A stretch of DNA of 64,000 nt, from assembly GCA_964579445.1 (NCBI GenBank), contig CAZOGM010000004.1, forward strand, positions 15,079 to 79,078. The letters run 5' to 3'. The stretch comes from an uncultured Acinetobacter sp. (lineage in GTDB: Bacteria; Pseudomonadota; Gammaproteobacteria; Pseudomonadales; Moraxellaceae). Each line of letters begins with the position of its first letter. Positions within the stretch are counted from its first letter, which is position 1. The position numbers were made by a program, and so were the translations under genes. The notes under the pieces were generated by a model that was not told the origin of the DNA, did not search any database, and was given only the letters and a program-made list of their open reading frames with translations. Shown here one piece after another: positions 3,739 through 25,547 of the stretch.

Positions 3739-5502
3739 TTAAATGTTTGATAAAACTATCTTATTCATTTTATTGACCAAACCGCTGCATCTTGTAGTTT
3801 CTATGGTCAATGCCTGTCGTAATGCATTTGGACTAACCAGCAGGCTGACCACTGATTTTGCACGGGTTATTGCGGTATAAATCAGCTCTTGGCTTAAGAG
3901 TTTGGTTGCAGAGTCATCTAGAACCACAGCAGTATGCATAAATTCAGAACCTTGAGACTTATGAATGGTCAAGGCAAAAGCAGTTTGTATTGATTTCGGC
4001 AATCGCGTTGCAGGTATCCATTTGTCTAAACTTGGAAAATAAACTTCGAACAGATCCGTTTGAGTTCTGTGCTTAAAACACAACCCAATATCGCCATTCG
4101 AGATCCCCAACTGATAATCGTTATAGCTCATCATTACGGGACGTCCTATATACCAGTCGCCCTGTTTTACAATGCGAGGCATTAGTCTGAGGCAGGCCTT
4201 TTGCATTTCATCATTTAAACGATCTAGACCCAATTCACCATAGCGAATCGCGGTTAAAATGCGGTAACGATCAAAAGCTTCAATAACCTTCAGCACATCC
4301 TCTTGAGCATAACCATTGCTCATATACCGCTCTAGCGCATGGAAGTAATCTTGATAGCCTGAACTCAGTTTTTCATAATATTGACTTAAGGCAACTGCGC
4401 TGATTTGATCTGGGATGTATTCAAGTTGCACCACATCATTCATTCCTTGTTTTAAAGCAATAGCCTGAAGCTCACCTGCTGTCACAATTTCATGTTCAAA
4501 TGCTTGGAGTATCTGTGCAGAATCAATTTTATGGTTTTGTATAAACTGAGCGGTCTGACCAATGCGTGCCCCTTCCTTAAAACGGCGCGAGGTGATCAGA
4601 TTGATTCGATTTTCTGCCAGTGCCTTAACGTGTTGTAAGTCTGCCAATACAGAGCCGACATCGACAGATGCCAACTGATTGGCATCGCCCAATAAAATCA
4701 GTCGACAATGATCGGGTACAGCTTCAAAGAGCAACGTTGCTAAATTCAGATCGAGCATCGAGGCTTCATCAATCACGATCACATCATAAGGCAAGGGCTG
4801 TTTTAGATTAAATCTAGCTTTAAACTGCGTACCTAGCCCCAAAAGTCGATGCAAAGTGAACGTATCTTGTTGTTTTAAGCGCGCGGAGACCAAACCTAAA
4901 GCATTTAGCTTTTCATCTGCAAATGAGCTTTGCATCGCTTCTTTCATGCGCTGCGCAGCTTTACCCGTTGGGGCTGCCATCGCAATACGAATATCCGGCA
5001 TGCTTTGACTTAATACTGCAATAATTCGCGCTAAGGTATAGGTTTTACCCGTGCCTGGACCACCTGTAATAATATTTAAAGCATTTTTAGCGACCATGTT
5101 CAGGGCACTTTTTTGATGAACATCTTCAAGTAAGTGCTCGAAAGACTGGACATCTACAGTGTCAATGTTTTGCTGTGTCAGGCGCTGAATTTGAAGGGCC
5201 AGACGCTGCTCTAACGTCCAGTAGCGATACAAATAAAGATACTGATCATCAAACACAAAAGGCGCAACTGTTTGATTGCTGGCTTGCTCATCCGAAATTA
5301 TCAAATGATGCAACTGTTCAAGGCTCTGTTCAGGTTTTTCTATACAACTGTCGCCTTGCGTACTGGCAAGCAAAATTTGCTCAATTAAATTAATGGATTG
5401 TTCATTTATTTTTGTATCATTTGAAGTCTGTTTTAGAATGAATTCAGCCCAAGTCCTGACCCACTGTGGCGCTTGACTCTCACGTTGCTGTTTATTTTCC
5501 AC
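3739..5502 (-). CDS. recD: Exodeoxyribonuclease V alpha subunit RecD
   Basis: ITGGPGTGKT Walker A, AAPTGKAAQR, TLHRLLG, IDEASM, LGDANQL, FALTIHKSQGSEF and YTAITRA; downstream of recB. Confidence 0.96.
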   Translation of the reverse strand: MENKQQRESQAPQWVRTWAEFILKQTSNDTKINEQSINLIEQILLASTQGDSCIEKPEQSLEQLHHLIISDEQASNQTVAPFVFDDQYLYLYRYWTLEQRLALQIQRLTQQNIDTVDVQSFEHLLEDVHQKSALNMVAKNALNIITGGPGTGKTYTLARIIAVLSQSMPDIRIAMAAPTGKAAQRMKEAMQSSFADEKLNALGLVSARLKQQDTFTLHRLLGLGTQFKARFNLKQPLPYDVIVIDEASMLDLNLATLLFEAVPDHCRLILLGDANQLASVDVGSVLADLQHVKALAENRINLITSRRFKEGARIGQTAQFIQNHKIDSAQILQAFEHEIVTAGELQAIALKQGMNDVVQLEYIPDQISAVALSQYYEKLSSGYQDYFHALERYMSNGYAQEDVLKVIEAFDRYRILTAIRYGELGLDRLNDEMQKACLRLMPRIVKQGDWYIGRPVMMSYNDYQLGISNGDIGLCFKHRTQTDLFEVYFPSLDKWIPATRLPKSIQTAFALTIHKSQGSEFMHTAVVLDDSATKLLSQELIYTAITRAKSVVSLLVSPNALRQALTIETTRCSGLVNKMNKIVLSNI

Positions 5503-5551
5503 ACAGTTATCCTCAAAGTTATCAACAGAGTTCTAAACACTGTTATCCACA
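5495..5551 (+). repeat. Array of five head-to-tail DnaA-box-like 9-mers with a 12-bp period
   Basis: TTTTCCACA (5495), TTATCCTCA (5507), TTATCAACA (5519), TTCTAAACA (5531, degenerate) and TTATCCACA (5543, perfect); GATC at 5558 and an AT-rich stretch adjacent. Confidence 0.7.
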
Positions 5552-5589
5552 GCGCAAGATCATGTTTAATATTTAATTACCACAATATT

Positions 5590-8500
5590 TCACGCTGTTT
5601 TGATGTTTTTATCATCAGTGAAATGACCCAAAATTGCATCAAGTCTCAAAATGAATTCATTTTCAGGTTTCCAGTACACATAACCTTGTTCGGCTTGCCC
5701 ATTCATACCGCGTAAATACAAATAGGTTGCACCACCCAAATCTCGTTCTATTTGATAATCTTCCAACTGAATTTTCAAATAACGATGCAGTGCCACCAAA
5801 TATAAACCTGCCTGCAACCAATAACTGGCATGGCTCATGCTGTCTTGGATGGCACTGGCTTGATAACTTGCCTGACTTAAACCTAAAAAATTACTTTTAT
5901 AATCTGCAATATGGTATCGCTGACCATCGAAGAACACCAAGTCGATCTCACCCTTAAGATAACGTGCTGAATGGGCATCGTTAAAATCAGGCATCAGGAT
6001 GCCATACTCTTGAAATAATTGGTGAATACGAGGAATGGCTAAGATGCGATCTGAGAGTGCCAAATAAAATGGAAACTCAGCCAAATGCTGATCTGGATGT
6101 AATTGATTGAGCTTAAACTGATTTAAAATTGGCGTTTTTAAAATGTCGTCCAACCAAGACACCATCAAGTCAATTAATAACGCATCAGGTTCAGATTCGT
6201 GCGGAAATGCTTTGGCGACTTTTTCCTGTAGCTCGCGCCATAAAATCACATAATCATTTTTAAAACGGCGTTTAAGCTCCAGTGACCAATGCGCTGAATC
6301 TTTAAAATCGATATGTTCAAAAATCTCATGCAAAAAATTACCTGCCAGCGTTCCCATCGGAAAATTGGCTTTGATCCATGCAATCGGCGCATGATTCAAT
6401 TCTTGACTCAGCTCCTGAGCTACTTCCACATCAATTACAGGCTGATGCAGCTCATCCTCGGCACTGCTTTGTTCAGCATCCATCACGGCCAAAGCATCTT
6501 GGATTTGTTTTCGGGTCAAATGCTGAGCCAAATAACTAAAACTGGTTTTCGCGCGTGGATAAAATCGTTGCGATGGGAAAACAGCTGCATGTAATTCAGC
6601 TTTCTCCGCTGTGGTATGCCCTTTTAATTTGGATGGTTTTTCGGTAATTAAAGGCTGAATCAGACTATACGGATGTGTAAATGCGTCTGCCCCCTGTCCT
6701 CGCCAAAAAGCCAGTCCCGTCGTTGATGTGCCCTTAGTATCGCTGAGCATGGCATACACACGGTGACTTGCCCGTGTCAATGCCACGTACCATAAGCGTC
6801 GATGTTCCGCTAAGTTGCGCTCTTCATGCTGTGCAATCGCTGTTTCATCGAGATTATTTTTATCATGAATGGCGACCACTCGATGCTCTTCCACTTTGCC
6901 CGTCTGTGGATGAATACGCGCTGCTTTAGAAAAATTCAGGGTTTTATTGATTTCGTTGACAGACTTATCTGCACCCAATAAAAACACAATTTTAAACTCT
7001 AAACCTTTAGATTGGTGAATGGTCATCAGCTGAACACCTGCATCATTGGATAGCTTCCGCTCCATTTCCCATTCACGTTGCATGGGTGCAGTGAGCTGTT
7101 TTAAATACCAATAATATAGATTCTGCGCACCTTGATAGCTTTCACTATGCTGACTTAGTGTTTCGGTTAAATGACGTAAATTTACCACTGCGCGCTCATT
7201 GTCACGGCTTTGTTTTTCAACCAACATTGTCCACACCTGAAATTGATTCAGACACAGTTGCCATGCGGTGAGAAAGCCTTGATTCAGCCATACTTCACGA
7301 ATTTGATCAAATTTTTCTATGTAGTGACTTAAGCCATCGGGCTGCATCTCCAGTTGAATCAGCTTTTGTAAATTAAAACCCAAGAGCCGACTGAGCAGCG
7401 CACGTTTAATTTTGGCTTCATCAAAAGGATGCATAATTGCGGTAAGTATTGCACCTACATCACGCGCCACTTGGCTTTCAAAAACACTTTTCTTGGAAGG
7501 TCGATTGAACGCTATCCCCAAATACTCAAGTGCAGATTGGACTTTGTCTAAGCCATCATGATTTTTAGACAACACCGCAATATCACTTTCATCTAAGCCA
7601 CGCGCAGGACTACCTGCAATACTTAACTCGCCTTGAATAGACTGATTTAACAGTTGGCGAATATTCCAAGCGACTTGTTCGGCTTCAGTCTCTTTATCTT
7701 CAAGTTGAATCCAGCGCAGTGGAGACGGATTAAGCTCTTGCTGATCAATCAATGCTGGATGGGGACGACTGCCCGCTTGGACTGGGGTGTAACTGACGTG
7801 CTCGCCAAAATCAATTTGACGTTGAAATAATGCATCGACCACTTCAACCAAGGGCTGAACCGAGCGATGGTTATGAACCAGATGATAAGCATGACCGTCT
7901 TTGCCAAACACATCCTGATGTGCTTTTAAGAAAGTCAGCATATCGCCACCACGAAAACCGTAAATTGCTTGTTTACGATCTCCAACCATGATCATACAGC
8001 CTTGATCAACCCGCTTTGAATGACGCCAAATCTGCGCCAGCATGTCGTCCTGATCCTGATTGGTGTCTTGAAATTCATCCACCAAAATTAAGGGATATCT
8101 TGCATGGACGTAACTGGCAAAGCGTTGCCCTTGCTCTCCTTGCAAAGACTCAGCAAGAGTACGAATTTGCTGTGCAAAGGTGGTTTCACCTTTTTGCTGT
8201 AACACTTGCGGTAAACGTTTTTTCACTTCACTGGCAAGATGGTATTTTAAATAGCTGTCTAGCTGATCCAAATCGAGATTCAGCTTGGCAAGCACTTCAA
8301 TAAAATGCTTTAGCGCCTTGATGACCGTATGCTGTTGAAAGTTGTTCAGTACATCTTCAGGGCATTTGTTTAAAGGCTTCTTGGTGGTGAGTTCAGTGAT
8401 TAGTTTTAACGTGTTGGCATATTGCGCAGCAAACAGCGCATACGCACCTTGTTGTTTTAAGGCTTCAAAGAAATCGGGCAGCTCTTGCAGAAAAAAATGC

Positions 8501-16132: not shown

Positions 16133-16491
16133 CCGGCCAAATGCTAAATTTTATGCCGCTAAATTTTGAATGAGCACGATAGCTTTGGATTGAGTTCATA
16201 TCTTTGCACCATTATAGCTCAAGCCGATCATAGAATTTTGGCTTGAGTTTTATACACAGGATAGATCGCTTAAAATTAAATCAGGTTCAGCTCATATTCA
16301 GCTGTAGATTTCGATTGAAAGCAACTGAATATTAATTTTTTAAAACCACTCATAAAAATCTAGCACTGCTATTTTTTATTTCTGTATATTATTCATATCA
16401 ATTGCATGATCTACACTGTAAAAAATCAAAGAATCTGTCATCATGCAAGTTCAACCAGATTTACTATTATTTGTGTTCAGGAGTGACTCGA

Positions 16492-17436
16492 ATGTCTAAT
16501 GAAAACCAACAGCCAACTGCTCAAAATGAGCTGGGCAACAACACAGACACAGTCAGTCCTTTTTTAACCGAGCCATTACCAACAGGTACCGCGCAAGGTC
16601 AGCAGCAATCATTACAACAAAAACTGACTGACACCCCAGTGACAGGTTCAGTACCCAAATACAATTTGCCACGTGGTGCAAATACCGGCAATGTCGGTGA
16701 GACCACACACTTTGGTTTCCAGACGGTAAACAGCGAAGAAAAAGCGCAAAAAGTCGCAGAAGTATTCCATTCTGTTGCCAGTAAATACGACATCATGAAT
16801 GACCTCATGTCATTTGGTATTCATCGTTTATGGAAACGCTTTGCGATTAATATGTCGGGCGTGCGCCGTGGCCAGCATGTACTCGATATTGCAGGCGGGA
16901 CAGGTGACCTTGCCAAAGTATTTAGCCGTGAAGTTGGCCCAACAGGTCATGTGGTTTTATCAGACATTAACGAATCGATGCTCAATGTCGGTCGTGATCG
17001 TTTACTGGATGCGGGCTGTAGTAATGTTGATTTTGTGTTGGCCAATGCTGAAACTTTAGAGCCATTTGCAGACAACAGTTTTGATCTTTTAACTATTTCT
17101 TTTGGTCTACGTAATGTGACCGATAAAGATGCTGCCCTTGCTTCAATGTACCGAGTGCTTAAGCCAGGTGGTCGTTTACTGATTTTAGAATTTTCTAAAC
17201 CTGTATTTGAGCCATTTTCTAAGCTTTACGATTTGTATTCATTCACTGCCCTCCCAATCATGGGCAAAATCATTGCCAATGACGCAGAAAGTTATAAATA
17301 TTTAGCTGAATCCATTCGTATGCATCCAGACCAACGTACCTTAAAAGGCATGATGGAAAATGCAGGCTTTCAAAACTGTGATTACCACAATTTAACCGCA
17401 GGTATTGTGGCGGTTCATCGTGGCTTTAAACTCTAA
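16492..17436 (+). CDS. ubiE: Ubiquinone/menaquinone biosynthesis C-methyltransferase UbiE with ~65-aa N-terminal extension
   Basis: THFGF...[43 protein letters not shown] and [10 protein letters not shown] motifs; SD AGGAG before ATG 16492. Confidence 0.97.
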
Positions 17437-21364: not shown

Positions 21365-22147
21365 ATGAACAACGCGCAATGGCTCGATGAAGTAAAATTT
21401 AACGAACAAGGACTAATTCCTGCTATTGCTCAACATCATCATACTGGACGTATTTTGATGGTTGCATGGATGAACCGCGAAGCTTTGAGCATGACCGCTG
21501 AGAAAAACCAAGCGGTGTATTTCTCTCGCTCACGTCAAAAGTTATGGCATAAAGGTGAAGAATCAGGTCATTTTCAAACCGTACATGAAATCCGTTTAGA
21601 CTGTGATGCTGATGTGATTGTGCTACAAATTGAACAGCATGGCGGTATTGCCTGCCATACGGGTCGCGAATCTTGTTTCTATCGAAAATTAACACCGAAT
21701 GGTTGGGAAATTGTGGATACACAGCTCAAAGACCCAAATGTCATTTATGCTGAAAAATCATCGAATGCCCATACCCAAGTCATGAGTGCGTCTACTGCTC
21801 AAGCTGAACAAGTCGATGTGCTAAGTTATTTAGGACAAATGATGGCGGAGCGTAAAGGTGCAGATCCAGATTCATCTTATGTGGCTAAGCTTTACCATAC
21901 AGGTCTCAATAAAATTTTAGAGAAAATTGGTGAGGAAAGTTTTGAAACAGTCATTGCTGCCAAAGAGTTTCAAGCAAAAGCACATGAAGACAATAAAAAT
22001 GATTTGATTTATGAAGTGGCTGATGTTTGGTTTCATACCATTGTCATGCTGGGGTATTTCGATCTAGATATTCAACTGGTTTTAAACGAGTTGGCACGTC
22101 GCCAAGGTTTATCGGGTTTGGTTGAAAAAGCCAATCGCAATCATTAA
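21365..22147 (+). CDS. hisIE: Bifunctional phosphoribosyl-AMP cyclohydrolase / phosphoribosyl-ATP pyrophosphatase
   Basis: [22 protein letters not shown] and CHTGRESCF (HisI), followed by SYVAKL, KIGEE and EVADVWFH (HisE). ATG 21365 is preferred over 21311. Confidence 0.97.
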
Positions 22148-22353
22148 GTCTTGAAGGTTTATTTTAGAAGCCATGCCTTGCCGGGCTTTTTTATTTTGCG
22201 TCATTAAATTTTCACTCAATGATCAGACTTAATCAGATCAGTCATATCTTGTCGTATCTTGTGCTGTCCTGCAAATTGATCTGCCTCATCCGCTGACTTT
22301 CTTGCTATACTCATCGATCAATTTTAATTCATTTTTGAAGACTCGATACCACT

Positions 22354-23847
22354 GTGCCAGATATTTTAAAAGCGACATTAGAACAGCAATTTGCGATTGA
22401 GCAAGCACACAAAGGTCAGTCTTTTAAGGTGATTGCCTATGCAGGTACAGGTAAAACCACGACCTTAAAATTGATCAGTGATTCGATGCAGCAACGCCGC
22501 GGTATGTATTTGGCGTTTAACAAAGCGATTGCCAGTGAAGCGCAAAATAAATTTCATGGCAATGTCGACTGTCGTACTTTTCACTCCTTGGCTTTTCGAA
22601 GCGTTCCACGTGGAGTGACCGACAAACTACGTTTACCTCGTCTCAGTCCCAGTTTTATTGCCAAAGAATACCGTCTAGAGCCGATTACCCTTCGCCGTTT
22701 AATGGGCGGTCGTTATGAAAAATATGCACTTTTACCCAGTCGTCTGGCCAGTCTTGTCGCTAACGCGGTAAGCTATTTCTGTTCTACAAGCTCACAGTAC
22801 CCTGCCCCACGTCATATTCAAGCACCGAGCTGGTTGCATGCAGATGATATTGAATCGTTGCAAAAGCATTTGTACCCTGCGGTTGAACGGCGTTGGCTTG
22901 AATCTATCGATCAAAACCATCAAGCCGGTATTGGGCATGATATTTATTTAAAACTCTGGGCATTGTCAGATCCTTTCATTCCCGCAGATTATGTCTTATT
23001 TGATGAAGCACAAGATGCTGACCCGCTCATGCTCGGTATTTTGCTTAAACAGCGCAGTACTCAAGTGATTTATGTGGGGGATGCACACCAACAAATTTAT
23101 GCATGGCGTGGCGCAGTCAATGCCATGCAGCAAATGCCCCTGCCTGAATCTCGTTTAACCACTTCTTTTCGTTTTGGTGATGCCATCGCGGATGTGGCGA
23201 ATCGACTGTTGGGTGCGCTCAATGAAACCGTTCCTTTGGTTGGCAACCCCGATGTCAAATCATCTGTGGTCAATAAACCACACACTAAAATGCGTGATGC
23301 CATTTTGTGTCGTACCAATGCACGGGCGATGGAATTACTATTGGCAGGTTTGGTTCAAGGGGATAAAGTCAGCTTACAAGCCGATCATGTCAAATTAAAT
23401 CGTTTTGTCGATGCTGCAAGTTTACTCAAACAAGGCAAACGTGTGGTCGATGTTCCTGAACTGGCTTGGTTTAATTCATGGCACGATGTGCATGAATACT
23501 GCGAAACCAACGATGGTAGTGATATTAAACCTTTAGTCAAACTGGTGGATGATCATGGAACAGATCCACTAAAAAAAGCCTTGGCTAAAATCACCCCGAT
23601 TGAACACGCAGACTATGTGATTTCAACCGCGCATAAAGCCAAAGGACTCGAGTGGAATCGGGTTCATATTGAAGATGATTACCAATTTAAGATTAATGGT
23701 TTGGAACATAAAATCAGTGATGAAGAATTAAGACTGCTTTATGTTGCCTGTACTCGTGCTAAACTAAGCTTAAATATTCACCATATTTATGATTTGGTGC
23801 AACAGCTCAAACTAAAAACAAATACGCTAGACAAAGCAACAGCATGA
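22354..23847 (+). CDS. Compact UvrD/Rep-family (SF1A) helicase, FBH1/GajB-sized
   Basis: All SF1 motifs intact: AYAGTGKT, YLAFNK, TFHSL, FDEAQD, VGDAHQQIYAWRG, LTTSFRF, STAHKAKGLEW and LYVACTRA. Confidence 0.9.
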   Translation: MPDILKATLEQQFAIEQAHKGQSFKVIAYAGTGKTTTLKLISDSMQQRRGMYLAFNKAIASEAQNKFHGNVDCRTFHSLAFRSVPRGVTDKLRLPRLSPSFIAKEYRLEPITLRRLMGGRYEKYALLPSRLASLVANAVSYFCSTSSQYPAPRHIQAPSWLHADDIESLQKHLYPAVERRWLESIDQNHQAGIGHDIYLKLWALSDPFIPADYVLFDEAQDADPLMLGILLKQRSTQVIYVGDAHQQIYAWRGAVNAMQQMPLPESRLTTSFRFGDAIADVANRLLGALNETVPLVGNPDVKSSVVNKPHTKMRDAILCRTNARAMELLLAGLVQGDKVSLQADHVKLNRFVDAASLLKQGKRVVDVPELAWFNSWHDVHEYCETNDGSDIKPLVKLVDDHGTDPLKKALAKITPIEHADYVISTAHKAKGLEWNRVHIEDDYQFKINGLEHKISDEELRLLYVACTRAKLSLNIHHIYDLVQQLKLKTNTLDKATA

Positions 23848-23874
23848 ATCCCCAAAATAAGTTGCAGGTAAAAT

Positions 23875-25254
23875 ATGAAAATTCATTCGATCAAATTACG
23901 CCATTGCGCTCATTTTTCTGACTTAAACATCGAATTCAAATATTCAAGTCAACCAATTACCCTCATTTTAGGTGATCAGTCCACAGGTAAAACGGCCCTG
24001 ATCAAAAATATATATCAAGCGCTGACGTGGTTTCCAGCTCGGCTTAAGGATAGCCGTACTGCGGGTGTGGTCATGTTAGATTCAGACATTACTCGAAATC
24101 GCGTGCAGTCTAGAATTCAGATGAATGTCCAAATTCCAGATGAGATTGGCAGCTTATCCGAAAGCTTTTCCTCACAAGATAAAGAAGTGTCCATTTGCTC
24201 ATGGATTTTATATAAGACCTTAAATGCGCAAAGTTTAGGACACAGTAAAGTCGATACCCAACAACTTGAACAACTGGCAGATTTATATAATAAAGCGATT
24301 CTTCACGATCCTTTACAAGGCTTGCCGCTGATCGCGTATTACCCTTCGGATCGTTTTGTCAATGAAATGAATCTGATCAGTAAAAATAATCCGGCTGTTT
24401 TTCAGCATCATTCTGCGTATGAACTTGCACCATTGCCCTACACCACTTTTGCGCGTTTTTTCGAATGGTTCCGCGAAATCAATGATATTGAAAACGCACA
24501 AACGGCACAGCTTTTTCACAAAATATTGCACAGCACCCAAGGCAAAGGCAGTGAAGTTTTTGATGATGAAAGCGTGAATTTAACTCAAAAACTGTTCCAA
24601 GCACATGCCCAAATGCATGCACCAAGTATGGTTGCATTAAAAACTGCATTGCACACCGTCTTTCCAGATTTAACCGATCTTTATCTTGAGTATTTGCCTA
24701 AGCTTCAGTTGATGGTAAATTATCAAGGACAAATCATGTCCTTTAGTCAACTGTCCAACGTAATGAAAAACTGGATTGCGCTGATTGGTGACGTGGTTCG
24801 CCGCTTGTGTTTACTCAATCCTCACCAGCTTTATCCGTGTATGGAAGGTCAGGGTATCTTGCTCATTGATAATATTGACGCGCAATTAGATCAAGACACT
24901 ACACAGAATATTTTGGAAAAATTGCATCAGGCTTTTCCTCAGCTACAAATTATTGCCACCGGCTGTAGTTCAGAACTACTTGAACATGCTGAGCATTATC
25001 AATATTTGAAACTCGATCAGAAAAAAATATACGAAGTCGATTTATCGTCACATAAAAATAATCTCGATAGGCTGTATCAGAGCGTACTCCATACGCTTGA
25101 ACCAAATAAAGATGAACCTTTGCTCAGTGCCGAAATCAATTCGAATGCACCGCAATATATGTTTGAAAAATTCCAAAATTTAAGTCCTGAACAGCAGCTT
25201 GAATTTTTACAATTAATTCAGGACGGCGATGCTTACACACCCGAGACGATTTAA
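23875..25254 (+). CDS. PtuA/COG3950-like ABC (AAA_21) ATPase homolog with degenerate catalytic motifs
   Basis: Family scaffold MKIHSIKL...LILGDQSTGKT...LPLIAYY...FFEWF...ALIGDVVRRL..LNP...GILLID..FPQLQIIAT. Signature, Walker B, D-loop and H-switch are altered. Confidence 0.75.
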   Translation: MKIHSIKLRHCAHFSDLNIEFKYSSQPITLILGDQSTGKTALIKNIYQALTWFPARLKDSRTAGVVMLDSDITRNRVQSRIQMNVQIPDEIGSLSESFSSQDKEVSICSWILYKTLNAQSLGHSKVDTQQLEQLADLYNKAILHDPLQGLPLIAYYPSDRFVNEMNLISKNNPAVFQHHSAYELAPLPYTTFARFFEWFREINDIENAQTAQLFHKILHSTQGKGSEVFDDESVNLTQKLFQAHAQMHAPSMVALKTALHTVFPDLTDLYLEYLPKLQLMVNYQGQIMSFSQLSNVMKNWIALIGDVVRRLCLLNPHQLYPCMEGQGILLIDNIDAQLDQDTTQNILEKLHQAFPQLQIIATGCSSELLEHAEHYQYLKLDQKKIYEVDLSSHKNNLDRLYQSVLHTLEPNKDEPLLSAEINSNAPQYMFEKFQNLSPEQQLEFLQLIQDGDAYTPETI

Positions 25255-25547
25255 ATCGGAAAATCTGTTTTCCCGCGTAAATTAAATGCGGTCTGAAACG
25301 AATTTAACACGATAATATTTAGACGATTTCGCTATAATCTTTAATCGTATAGGCAAAAAGTTTGATGTTATTTTGCTCATGCAATAAAATCATCATATTC
25401 ATTTTTATGAAAATGTTTATTTTTGCATATGCTTTTTCAGGTTGCGCAACACAACTTGTCTCTGATTTTTTTAAATTCGTTCGGCTTTCAAAATTTAAGC
25501 AGTTGGATGGTTCTTTGCTGTCCTCAAATATTTGAAAGATAAGACTC

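What the first reader, a model, noticed from the sequence alone, without database searches (positions are those of the whole stretch)
22354..25254. Two-gene module: compact SF1 helicase plus Septu/PtuA-type ATPase with no nuclease (candidate undescribed defence or DNA-surveillance system)
A 497-aa UvrD-like helicase with all motifs intact is followed 27 bp later by a 459-aa COG3950/PtuA-family ABC ATPase homolog. The pair has its own extended -10 (TGCTATACT, ~22303-22311) and is unrelated to the flanking hisIE and pha genes. Helicase plus ABC-ATPase pairs define Gabija (GajA ATPase-TOPRIM with a ~500-aa UvrD-like GajB). PtuA ATPases normally partner an HNH nuclease in Septu and in type I-A retrons (established). 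Here there is no TOPRIM domain, HNH gene or reverse transcriptase, so the combination fits no system I know. Base composition looks host-like and there are no mobility marks, so it may be an old domesticated module acting with a partner encoded elsewhere, or in replication-fork or foreign-DNA processing (inference).
Basis: partly seen in the sequence, partly recalled or inferred. Interest (0 to 1): 0.72.

Follow-up and report, generated by a model that had tools for sequence, protein, structure and literature searches.

The report
Core helicase plus dead, orphaned PtuA
The two genes are real and adjacent, but this is not a mobile defence system: an ancient housekeeping-type FBH1-like DNA helicase is followed by a vertically inherited relic of the Septu defence ATPase PtuA that has lost its nuclease partner, the tail that docks that nuclease, and its catalytic residues, yet is still kept by selection in most Acinetobacter species.

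Summary
ORFs 22354-23847 (497 aa, SF1 helicase) and 23875-25254 (459 aa, PtuA-fold protein) exist, 27 bp apart, with no nuclease, TOPRIM or reverse transcriptase nearby.

The interpretation needs revising.
- The helicase is not GajB-like. It is an FBH1-type helicase (profile E = 2e-64 to human FBH1; about 1e-10 to GajB). It is a core Moraxellaceae gene at the hisIE locus, with dN/dS 0.017. It occurs without the ATPase in Psychrobacter, a Moraxella sp. and an Alkanindiges genome.
- The 'ATPase' keeps only its P-loop. The Walker B glutamate (N here; Q/A/H/N/D in 72 of 75 Acinetobacter sequences), the ABC signature, the H-loop and the PtuB-docking C-terminal extension are all gone.
- The ATPase is restricted to Acinetobacter and a few related lineages, always directly after the helicase. 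It changes about 6 times faster at the protein level (dN/dS 0.09). It is absent or nonsense-disrupted in 6 of 80 species-level genomes and is never on true plasmids.
- Its nearest canonical relatives are genuine PtuA-PtuB Septu systems inside type I R-M loci.

Best reading: an orphaned Septu PtuA fixed next to a core helicase, possibly kept as a non-hydrolysing accessory factor. A functional partnership with the helicase is plausible but unproven. An active two-gene defence system is unlikely.

The parts
22166..22197 (+). Terminator-like hairpin (7-bp stem) plus U-run just after the hisIE stop
   Evidence: strand folding (centroid -8.7 kcal/mol, then UUUUUUAUUUU; z-score not significant). Specific to this lineage: in 62 of 79 Acinetobacter loci the helicase starts within 60 bp of the hisIE stop.
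22303..22311 (+).
   Evidence: Present in the sequence. It has no -35 and is not listed by the consensus scan, which found no excess of sites over shuffles. Not testable by RNA data here.
22354..23847 (+). FBH1-type SF1 (UvrD-superfamily) DNA helicase, 497 aa, GTG start; core Moraxellaceae gene
   Evidence: FBH1 8e-45, profile 2e-64, Foldseek 2e-28 with TM 0.64; phrog_1967 5e-99; about 90% identical across Acinetobacter and about 60% in Psychrobacter; dN/dS 0.017.
23848..23874 (+). 27-bp junction with an AGG Shine-Dalgarno-like element and no hairpin
   Evidence: Gap is a median 29 bp (16-112) in 73 Acinetobacter loci and 8-122 bp in outgroup lineages. Compatible with co-transcription, which was not shown.
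23875..25254 (+). PtuA-fold ABC-type protein, 459 aa, degenerate (P-loop only), orphaned from PtuB
   Evidence: dN/dS 0.09.
23971..23994 (+). Walker A / P-loop GDQSTGKT (residues 33-40), intact
   Evidence: GK[ST] present in 79 of 79 clade members; G33, G38 and K39 invariant.
24748..24768 (+). Degenerate ABC signature QLSNVMK (residues 292-298) where canonical PtuA has QLSQGEK
   Evidence: Alignment A2; none of 79 clade members has SxGE.
24856..24879 (+). Walker B ILLIDNID (residues 328-335): Asp kept, catalytic Glu replaced by Asn333; the following D-loop/HLHP motif is replaced by AQLD
   Evidence: The residue after the Asp is Q34, A27, H6, N4, D1, E7 across 79 sequences; E only in 4 outgroup and 3 Acinetobacter sequences. 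The equivalent E396Q is the ATPase-dead mutant of retron Ec78 PtuA (PMC12819146).
25027..25251 (+). C-terminal about 75 residues: helical, fast-evolving tail that no longer resembles the PtuB-docking C-terminal extension of PtuA
   Evidence: Canonical CTE HMM scores at most 10 bits on 79 clade members, against 104-139 bits in leave-one-out controls. It is the least conserved segment, 0.41-0.49 majority fraction. AF2 predicts three helices: 390-407, 425-434, 438-449.
25267..25299 (+). Hairpin after the ATPase stop, without a U-run
   Evidence: strand folding (-10.2 kcal/mol, z = -1.86). Function not established.

Best explanation
Shown. The first gene is a core, vertically inherited FBH1-type SF1 helicase of Moraxellaceae, anchored to the hisIE locus. 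The second gene is a PtuA descendant. An ancestor of Acinetobacter and a few related lineages acquired a Septu-type PtuA between the helicase and the next gene. The HNH partner PtuB is gone. The PtuB-docking C-terminal extension has been replaced. The hydrolysis machinery eroded stepwise: outgroup lineages still have the Walker B D-E pair, while most Acinetobacter have D-Q/A/H/N. The P-loop stayed invariant. The gene is under purifying selection but is dispensable.

Inferred mechanism. The protein still binds ATP and dimerises head-to-head like PtuA or Rad50, but cannot turn ATP over. It would therefore act as a long-lived nucleotide-bound adaptor or sensor rather than a motor. It is probably co-transcribed with the helicase, and in most species with hisIE as well. 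It may use its novel helical tail, in place of PtuB docking, to bind or modulate the helicase on DNA ends, forks or recombination intermediates. The helicase does the enzymatic work and does not need the accessory protein.

The confidence given is for the whole statement. The descriptive part is about 0.85; a physical or functional partnership with the helicase is about 0.35.
For: Helicase identity and core status: FBH1 2e-64 versus GajB about 1e-10; dN/dS 0.017, below hisIE 0.041 and mrpA 0.033; the same hisIE-linked locus across the family.

PtuA ancestry. The nearest canonical relatives are true PtuA-PtuB pairs inside type I R-M loci.

Degeneration; the E396Q equivalence comes from PMC12819146.

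Still functional: 73 of 80 intact ORFs and dN/dS 0.09.

Adjacency: the pair stays together despite changed flanks. Downstream is mrp, dus or dinB; upstream is hisIE or phoX. Gaps are 8-122 bp on the same strand, and there is no hairpin in the junction.

Dispensability: 4 absences and 2 nonsense alleles in Acinetobacter, plus absence in the L005 and L010 lineages.
Against: There is no direct evidence for interaction or co-transcription.

The helicase works alone in sister genera and after loss of the ATPase.

A mirror-tree test gave no helicase-ATPase signal beyond that of unrelated neighbours.

The roughly 6-fold difference in amino-acid substitution rate is unusual for obligate partners.

An independent degenerate orphan PtuA-like gene in Nitrincola has no helicase nearby, so such relics can persist without one.

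All adjacency derives from a single ancestral locus, so it counts as one evolutionary observation.
Confidence: 0.5

Rival explanations
1. Independent orphan relic. A Septu system landed by chance between the helicase and dus/mrp, and PtuB was lost. The surviving PtuA-like protein has a helicase-independent role, for example an ATP-binding regulator, a decoy, or a partner of something encoded in trans. On this view the adjacency is historical accident preserved by vertical descent.
For: All occurrences trace to one locus. The helicase stands alone in Psychrobacter, a Moraxella sp. and Alkanindiges. The Nitrincola orphan has no helicase. There is no specific co-evolution signal. The rate difference is about 6-fold.
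Against: The pair has stayed contiguous, on the same strand and with short gaps, over a divergence at which the ATPase retains only 33-37% identity and both flanks have been rearranged. No case was found of the clade's ATPase away from the helicase.
Confidence: 0.3
2. One reading: an active two-gene anti-phage or anti-plasmid system in which the PtuA-like protein senses infection and the helicase is the effector. This would be a nuclease-free analogue of Septu or Gabija.
For: All characterised PtuA relatives act in defence. The ATPase evolves fast and is sporadically lost, as defence genes often are. Stand-alone Septu PtuA itself traps ATP without hydrolysing it (PMC12819146), so loss of hydrolysis does not by itself exclude a sensor role. 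Helicases of this family are common on phages and plasmids.
Against: The locus is a fixed housekeeping context with no island or mobility features. The helicase is older than the pairing, core, and under stricter constraint than hisIE or mrpA. The clade is absent from true plasmids. The effector-docking tail and the signature motif are lost. The helicase is not GajB-like. Overall dN/dS of 0.09 gives no hint of an arms race.
Confidence: 0.12
3. The second gene is a non-functional relic on its way to becoming a pseudogene.
For: Catalytic motifs are lost, and there are 4 absences and 2 nonsense alleles among 80 species-level genomes.
Against: The ORF is intact in 73 of 80 genomes across a whole genus and beyond. 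dN/dS is 0.09. The P-loop and many core residues are invariant.
Confidence: 0.04

Closest known systems
Septu PtuA (PtuAB, E. coli; PDB 8EE4/8EEA) and retron type I-A PtuA (Ec78/Eco7, Ec83)
   Same: Same fold over the whole ABC/Rad50-like core including the helical insertion (Foldseek 1e-21 to 1e-23). HMM PDLC00271 1.9e-58. Conserved P-loop. Several family-specific motifs are shared, such as FFEWFRE..D.EN and GD..RRL..NP.
   Different: No PtuB/HNH partner. The PtuB-docking C-terminal extension is not recognisable. The Walker B Glu, signature motif and H-loop are lost. It lacks the about 60-residue N-terminal extension of retron PtuA. It scores 150 bits against the 500-bit NCBIfam PtuA cut-off. 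It is chromosomal, syntenic and vertically inherited rather than island-borne.
Human F-box DNA helicase 1 (FBH1), helicase domain (PDB 9XZJ/9XZM)
   Same: The helicase aligns end to end with FBH1 residues 367-867 (E = 2e-64 with a family profile; Foldseek 2e-28, TM 0.64, 27-28% identity). All SF1 motifs are shared.
   Different: No F-box or other N-terminal region. It is bacterial, and the same family is widespread on conjugative plasmids and phages. Biochemical activity was not tested.
Gabija (GajA ATPase-TOPRIM + GajB UvrD-like helicase)
   Same: An ABC-type ATPase-fold gene next to a UvrD-superfamily helicase of about 500 aa.
   Different: Gene order is reversed and there is no TOPRIM nuclease domain. 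GajB HMMs match only short generic motifs (at most 58 bits). GajB ranks 25th structurally with TM 0.31. The ATPase matches PtuA models, not GajA.
Orphan degenerate PtuA-like gene of Nitrincola spp. (WP_112158359 family)
   Same: A PtuA-like core with degenerate Walker B and H-loop (IDDIDNSLD, VSGQALAL), no nuclease, and a housekeeping chromosomal context.
   Different: A different lineage (31% identity), no adjacent helicase, shorter (395 aa). It shows that orphaning of PtuA has happened more than once.

Membership tests
Septu (PtuA + PtuB) | PtuA: ABC/Rad50-like ATPase fold of the PtuA family | tested here: met
   PADLOC PtuA 1.9e-58; the top 50 Foldseek hits are all PtuA.
Septu (PtuA + PtuB) | Adjacent PtuB HNH nuclease | tested here: not met
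   Flanking genes are hisIE and mrpA. tblastn with a verified PtuB finds nothing in the window or in 90 loci. Canonical relatives do have PtuB.
Septu (PtuA + PtuB) | PtuA C-terminal extension that docks PtuB (PMC12819146) | tested here: not met
   CTE HMM scores at most 10 bits, against 104-139 bits in controls.
Septu (PtuA + PtuB) | Complete nucleotide-binding site (Walker A, Walker B D-E, signature, H-loop) | tested here: not met
   Only Walker A and the Walker B Asp are retained.
Septu (PtuA + PtuB) | NCBIfam PtuA equivalog score (NF041760, cut-off 500 bits) | tested here: not met
   150.4 bits.
Septu (PtuA + PtuB) | Anti-phage activity | not testable with these tools
   Needs plaque assays.
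Gabija | GajA: ABC ATPase fused to a TOPRIM nuclease | tested here: not met
   No TOPRIM in Pfam; the best PADLOC models are PtuA, not GajA.
Gabija | GajB-type helicase | tested here: not met
   GajB HMMs score at most 58 bits over partial motifs. PDB GajB is at 1.7e-4 against FBH1 at 8e-45. Foldseek rank 25, TM 0.31.
Retron type I-A (RT + ncRNA + PtuA + HNH) | Reverse transcriptase and HNH next to the ATPase; N-terminal extension on PtuA | tested here: not met
   Neighbours are housekeeping genes. The protein starts at about residue 63 of retron PtuA. The ncRNA was not searched for separately.
FBH1-type SF1A helicases (UvrD superfamily) | Full set of SF1 helicase motifs and end-to-end similarity to the FBH1 helicase domain | tested here: met
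   invariant motifs; 2e-64; TM 0.64.
FBH1-type SF1A helicases (UvrD superfamily) | F-box / SCF recruitment (eukaryotic FBH1 proper) | tested here: not met
   The alignment starts at FBH1 residue 367; the bacterial protein has no N-terminal region.
FBH1-type SF1A helicases (UvrD superfamily) | 3'-5' DNA unwinding / recombinase-filament removal | not testable with these tools
   Needs biochemistry.

The most novel reading that the evidence does not exclude
A defence ATPase has been exapted into core DNA metabolism. After losing its nuclease and its ability to hydrolyse ATP, the Septu PtuA scaffold evolved a new C-terminal docking tail. It now works as an ATP-sensing regulatory subunit of a bacterial FBH1-like helicase in Acinetobacter, including A. 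baumannii. It would tune recombination, fork processing or the handling of incoming DNA, for example during natural transformation.
Probability: 0.25. Interest if true: 0.7.

Novelty: new variant of a known kind. Interest (0 to 1): 0.42.

Why it matters
Defence-system catalogues will flag this gene as an incomplete Septu in most Acinetobacter genomes, A. baumannii included. Knowing that it is a fixed, hydrolysis-dead, partner-less PtuA avoids miscounting it as immunity.

It is also a tractable case of what happens to a defence ATPase after its effector is lost. The erosion is ordered (signature motif first, then the Walker B Glu and the H-loop) while the P-loop is preserved, which points to a retained nucleotide-binding role.

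The neighbouring helicase is a little-noticed bacterial, plasmid and phage counterpart of eukaryotic FBH1. It is under very strong constraint in a genus known for natural competence and genome plasticity. Both genes can be tested directly with existing Acinetobacter mutant collections.

Tried and rejected
1. Gabija analogy: rejected on the HMM, sequence and structure comparisons.

2. Complete or cryptic Septu: rejected. There is no PtuB anywhere in the window or in 90 loci, and the docking tail is lost.

3. Mobile-element origin of the pair: the degenerate clade is absent from true plasmids. The 'plasmid' and 'phage' hits at about 51% (ATPase) and about 90% (helicase) identity look like mislabelled A. 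baumannii chromosomal sequence.

4. Independent helicase + PtuA-like associations elsewhere: none were found. The plasmid helicase homologues inspected have other neighbours, and the Nitrincola orphan has no helicase.

5. Co-evolution (partial Mantel): helicase-ATPase r = 0.27, below ATPase-hisIE at 0.63 and helicase-mrpA at 0.55, so it is uninformative.

The wider distribution of the helicase beyond Moraxellaceae was therefore seen only through plasmids, phages and PHROGs.

8. Literature searches for the pair, for bacterial FBH1-like helicases and for orphan PtuA found nothing specific.

9. Pseudogene hypothesis: rejected by dN/dS 0.09 and 73 of 80 intact ORFs.
Full report
**What is there.** The window holds two same-strand ORFs: 22354-23847 (497 aa, GTG start) and 23875-25254 (459 aa), 27 bp apart. 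Upstream lie ubiE, ubiJ, ubiB, an FAD monooxygenase and hisIE. Downstream lies the mrp/pha antiporter operon. GC content is similar to the flanks.

**The helicase.** Pfam finds AAA_19, UvrD-helicase and UvrD_C, and all SF1 motifs are invariant in family alignments. It is not a Gabija GajB. GajB models hit only short generic motifs (at most 58 bits). Among solved structures the only strong sequence match is human F-box DNA helicase 1, at 8e-45 for the single sequence and 2e-64 for a family profile, covering residues 4-482 against FBH1 367-867. PcrA, UvrD and GajB are near 1e-10. The AF2 model (pLDDT 81) gives the same answer: FBH1 at 2e-28 with TM 0.64, PcrA/UvrD/Rep at 1e-12 to 1e-14, and GajB at rank 25 with TM 0.31. 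The family also matches phage family phrog_1967 (5e-99). It occurs on 1,924 plasmid records, 1,236 of them conjugative, and on 268 phage records at roughly 28-45% identity.

**The helicase is a core gene.** It is about 90% identical across Acinetobacter and about 60% identical in Psychrobacter and Faucicola. It always lies at the hisIE locus. In 62 of 79 Acinetobacter loci it starts within 60 bp of the hisIE stop, often 4-9 bp. The window's 206-bp spacer, with a terminator-like hairpin and the TGCTATACT string, is therefore specific to this lineage. Its closest named relatives instead have a phoX-like gene inserted there. Pairwise dN/dS for the helicase is 0.017, lower than hisIE (0.041) and mrpA (0.033) on the same genome pairs.

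**The 'ATPase' is a PtuA by ancestry.** It matches PADLOC PtuA PDLC00271 at 1.9e-58 over nearly its full length and retron I-A ATPase at 8e-46. It matches retron Ec83, retron Ec78 and Septu PtuA in the PDB by sequence. All top 50 Foldseek matches of its AF2 model (pLDDT 74, pTM 0.71) are PtuA chains. It fails the NCBIfam PtuA equivalog cut-off, with 150 bits against 500. Its nearest canonical relatives, at 26-28% identity, are genuine Septu. On an Enterobacter IncFIB plasmid the relative scores 537 bits on the same HMM, is followed by an overlapping PtuB (5.3e-96), and sits inside a type I R-M locus. Zobellella has the same layout.

**It is degenerate.** Aligned with canonical relatives and across 79 clade members:
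- Only the Walker A GK[ST] (79 of 79) and the Walker B Asp survive.
- The catalytic Glu is N in the window. Across the 79 sequences the residue is Q (34), A (27), H (6), N (4), D (1) or E (7). The E is kept only in four outgroup sequences and three Acinetobacter species.
- No member has the SxGE signature. The canonical QLSQGEK reads QLSNVMK here.
- The THSP H-loop is replaced (ATGCS here), and the D-loop HLHP reads AQLD.

The equivalent E396Q substitution is the engineered ATPase-dead mutant of Ec78 PtuA, and PtuB docks on PtuA's conserved C-terminal extension (PMC12819146). An HMM of that extension scores 104-139 bits on left-out canonical proteins but at most 10 bits on any clade member. 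A core HMM hits all 79 at 174-281 bits. No PtuB-like sequence exists in the window or in 90 related loci.

**Distribution and selection.** The clade is restricted to Acinetobacter and a few related uncultured lineages, and wherever context is available it lies directly after the helicase. Of 80 species-level Acinetobacter loci (one labelled only Moraxellaceae):

| State of the ATPase | Loci |
|---|---|
| Intact | 73 |
| Cut by a contig end | 1 |
| Absent (L029, L043, L053, L082) | 4 |
| In-frame nonsense codon (L070, L073) | 2 |

One of the intact copies, L067, is truncated at codon 441. The helicase is intact in all 80. The ATPase is also absent from Psychrobacter, from a 'Moraxella sp.' whose helicase is 78% identical, and from an Alkanindiges genome. 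That Alkanindiges helicase is 82% identical to one from a lineage that has the ATPase in the same hel-[ATPase]-dus position. This pattern indicates one acquisition and repeated loss. The ATPase has dN/dS 0.09 and about 6 times the helicase's amino-acid rate. It is a working but weakly constrained, dispensable gene. It is not on true plasmids.

**Is it a module?**

For: the adjacency has survived long divergence (ATPase down to 33-37% identity) and rearrangement of both flanks, with 8-122 bp gaps and no junction hairpin.

Against: all of this is one ancestral locus. The helicase predates and outlives the pairing. A partial-Mantel co-evolution test gives r = 0.27, below that for unrelated neighbours. 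Nitrincola has an independent degenerate orphan PtuA-like gene with no helicase. Co-transcription and interaction could not be tested.

**Verdict.** The headline reading as a Gabija-like or novel defence system is not supported. The best account is a core FBH1-type helicase followed by an orphaned, hydrolysis-dead PtuA relic that selection still maintains. It may act as a nucleotide-binding accessory factor of the helicase; that last step is inference, at a probability of about 0.35. I rate it a new variant of a known kind, of moderate interest.

Noticed in passing
L011 3752-5755 (minus strand); also L012-L018, L020, L021; compare window 22148-22353: The window's closest named relatives carry a phoX-like gene of about 667 aa, on the opposite strand, between hisIE and the helicase. 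The window has only 206 bp there. L008 has two phoX genes upstream of the helicase. This spot looks like a recurrent insertion/deletion site.
   Followed up: partly
window 25438-25458: The inverted repeat CAGGTTGCGCAACACAACTTG upstream of mrpA is conserved in other Acinetobacter loci, including those that have deleted the ATPase (L043, L053, L082). It is likely an mrp regulatory site or leader element and not part of the pair.
   Followed up: partly
L095 7001-8188 (Nitrincola alkalisediminis): An independent orphan PtuA-like gene with a degenerate Walker B and H-loop sits among amino-acid transporter and rhodanese genes, with no nuclease or helicase nearby. Orphaning of PtuA appears to be recurrent.
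   Followed up: partly
public records CAKLQF020000005.1 and CAKLQH020000005.1 ('Acinetobacter phage MD-2021a'); CP035931.1, NZ_CP077849.1, NZ_CP064203.1, NZ_CP104448.1 ('plasmids' of 1.0-4.1 Mb): The four 'plasmid' records carry both genes, and the two 'phage' records carry the helicase, at the identities seen for the A. baumannii chromosome. They look like bacterial chromosomal sequence mislabelled as phage or plasmid.
   Followed up: no
window 22100-25500: Near-identical DNA was found only in two faeces-metagenome runs (0.91 and 0.70 of sampled words). The best named species matches are 93% (helicase) and 60% or less (ATPase). The window therefore seems to come from an Acinetobacter species with no close representative genome.
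   Followed up: partly
L093 (Acinetobacter plasmid pACI-6db8) 5001-6512; L094 (pMOL28) 5007-6467: Plasmid and phage-plasmid copies of the FBH1-like helicase sit next to a lambda-exonuclease-family gene and an integrase (L093), or next to PRTRC-ParB, a DNA methylase and DUF1173 (L094). PGAP annotates them as '3'-5' exonuclease', which is probably a misnomer for a helicase.
   Followed up: no
window 16402-17436: The mechanical ubiE ORF (344 aa, TTG start) matches UbiE only from about residue 97. The A. baumannii gene is 315 aa, so the true start is probably downstream of 16402.
   Followed up: no
L029 7483-7947: In this Acinetobacter MAG the helicase is followed by 465 bp of AT-rich sequence unrelated to any other locus, and then the contig ends. 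This could be an insertion, a replacement of the ATPase, or a misassembly.
   Followed up: partly
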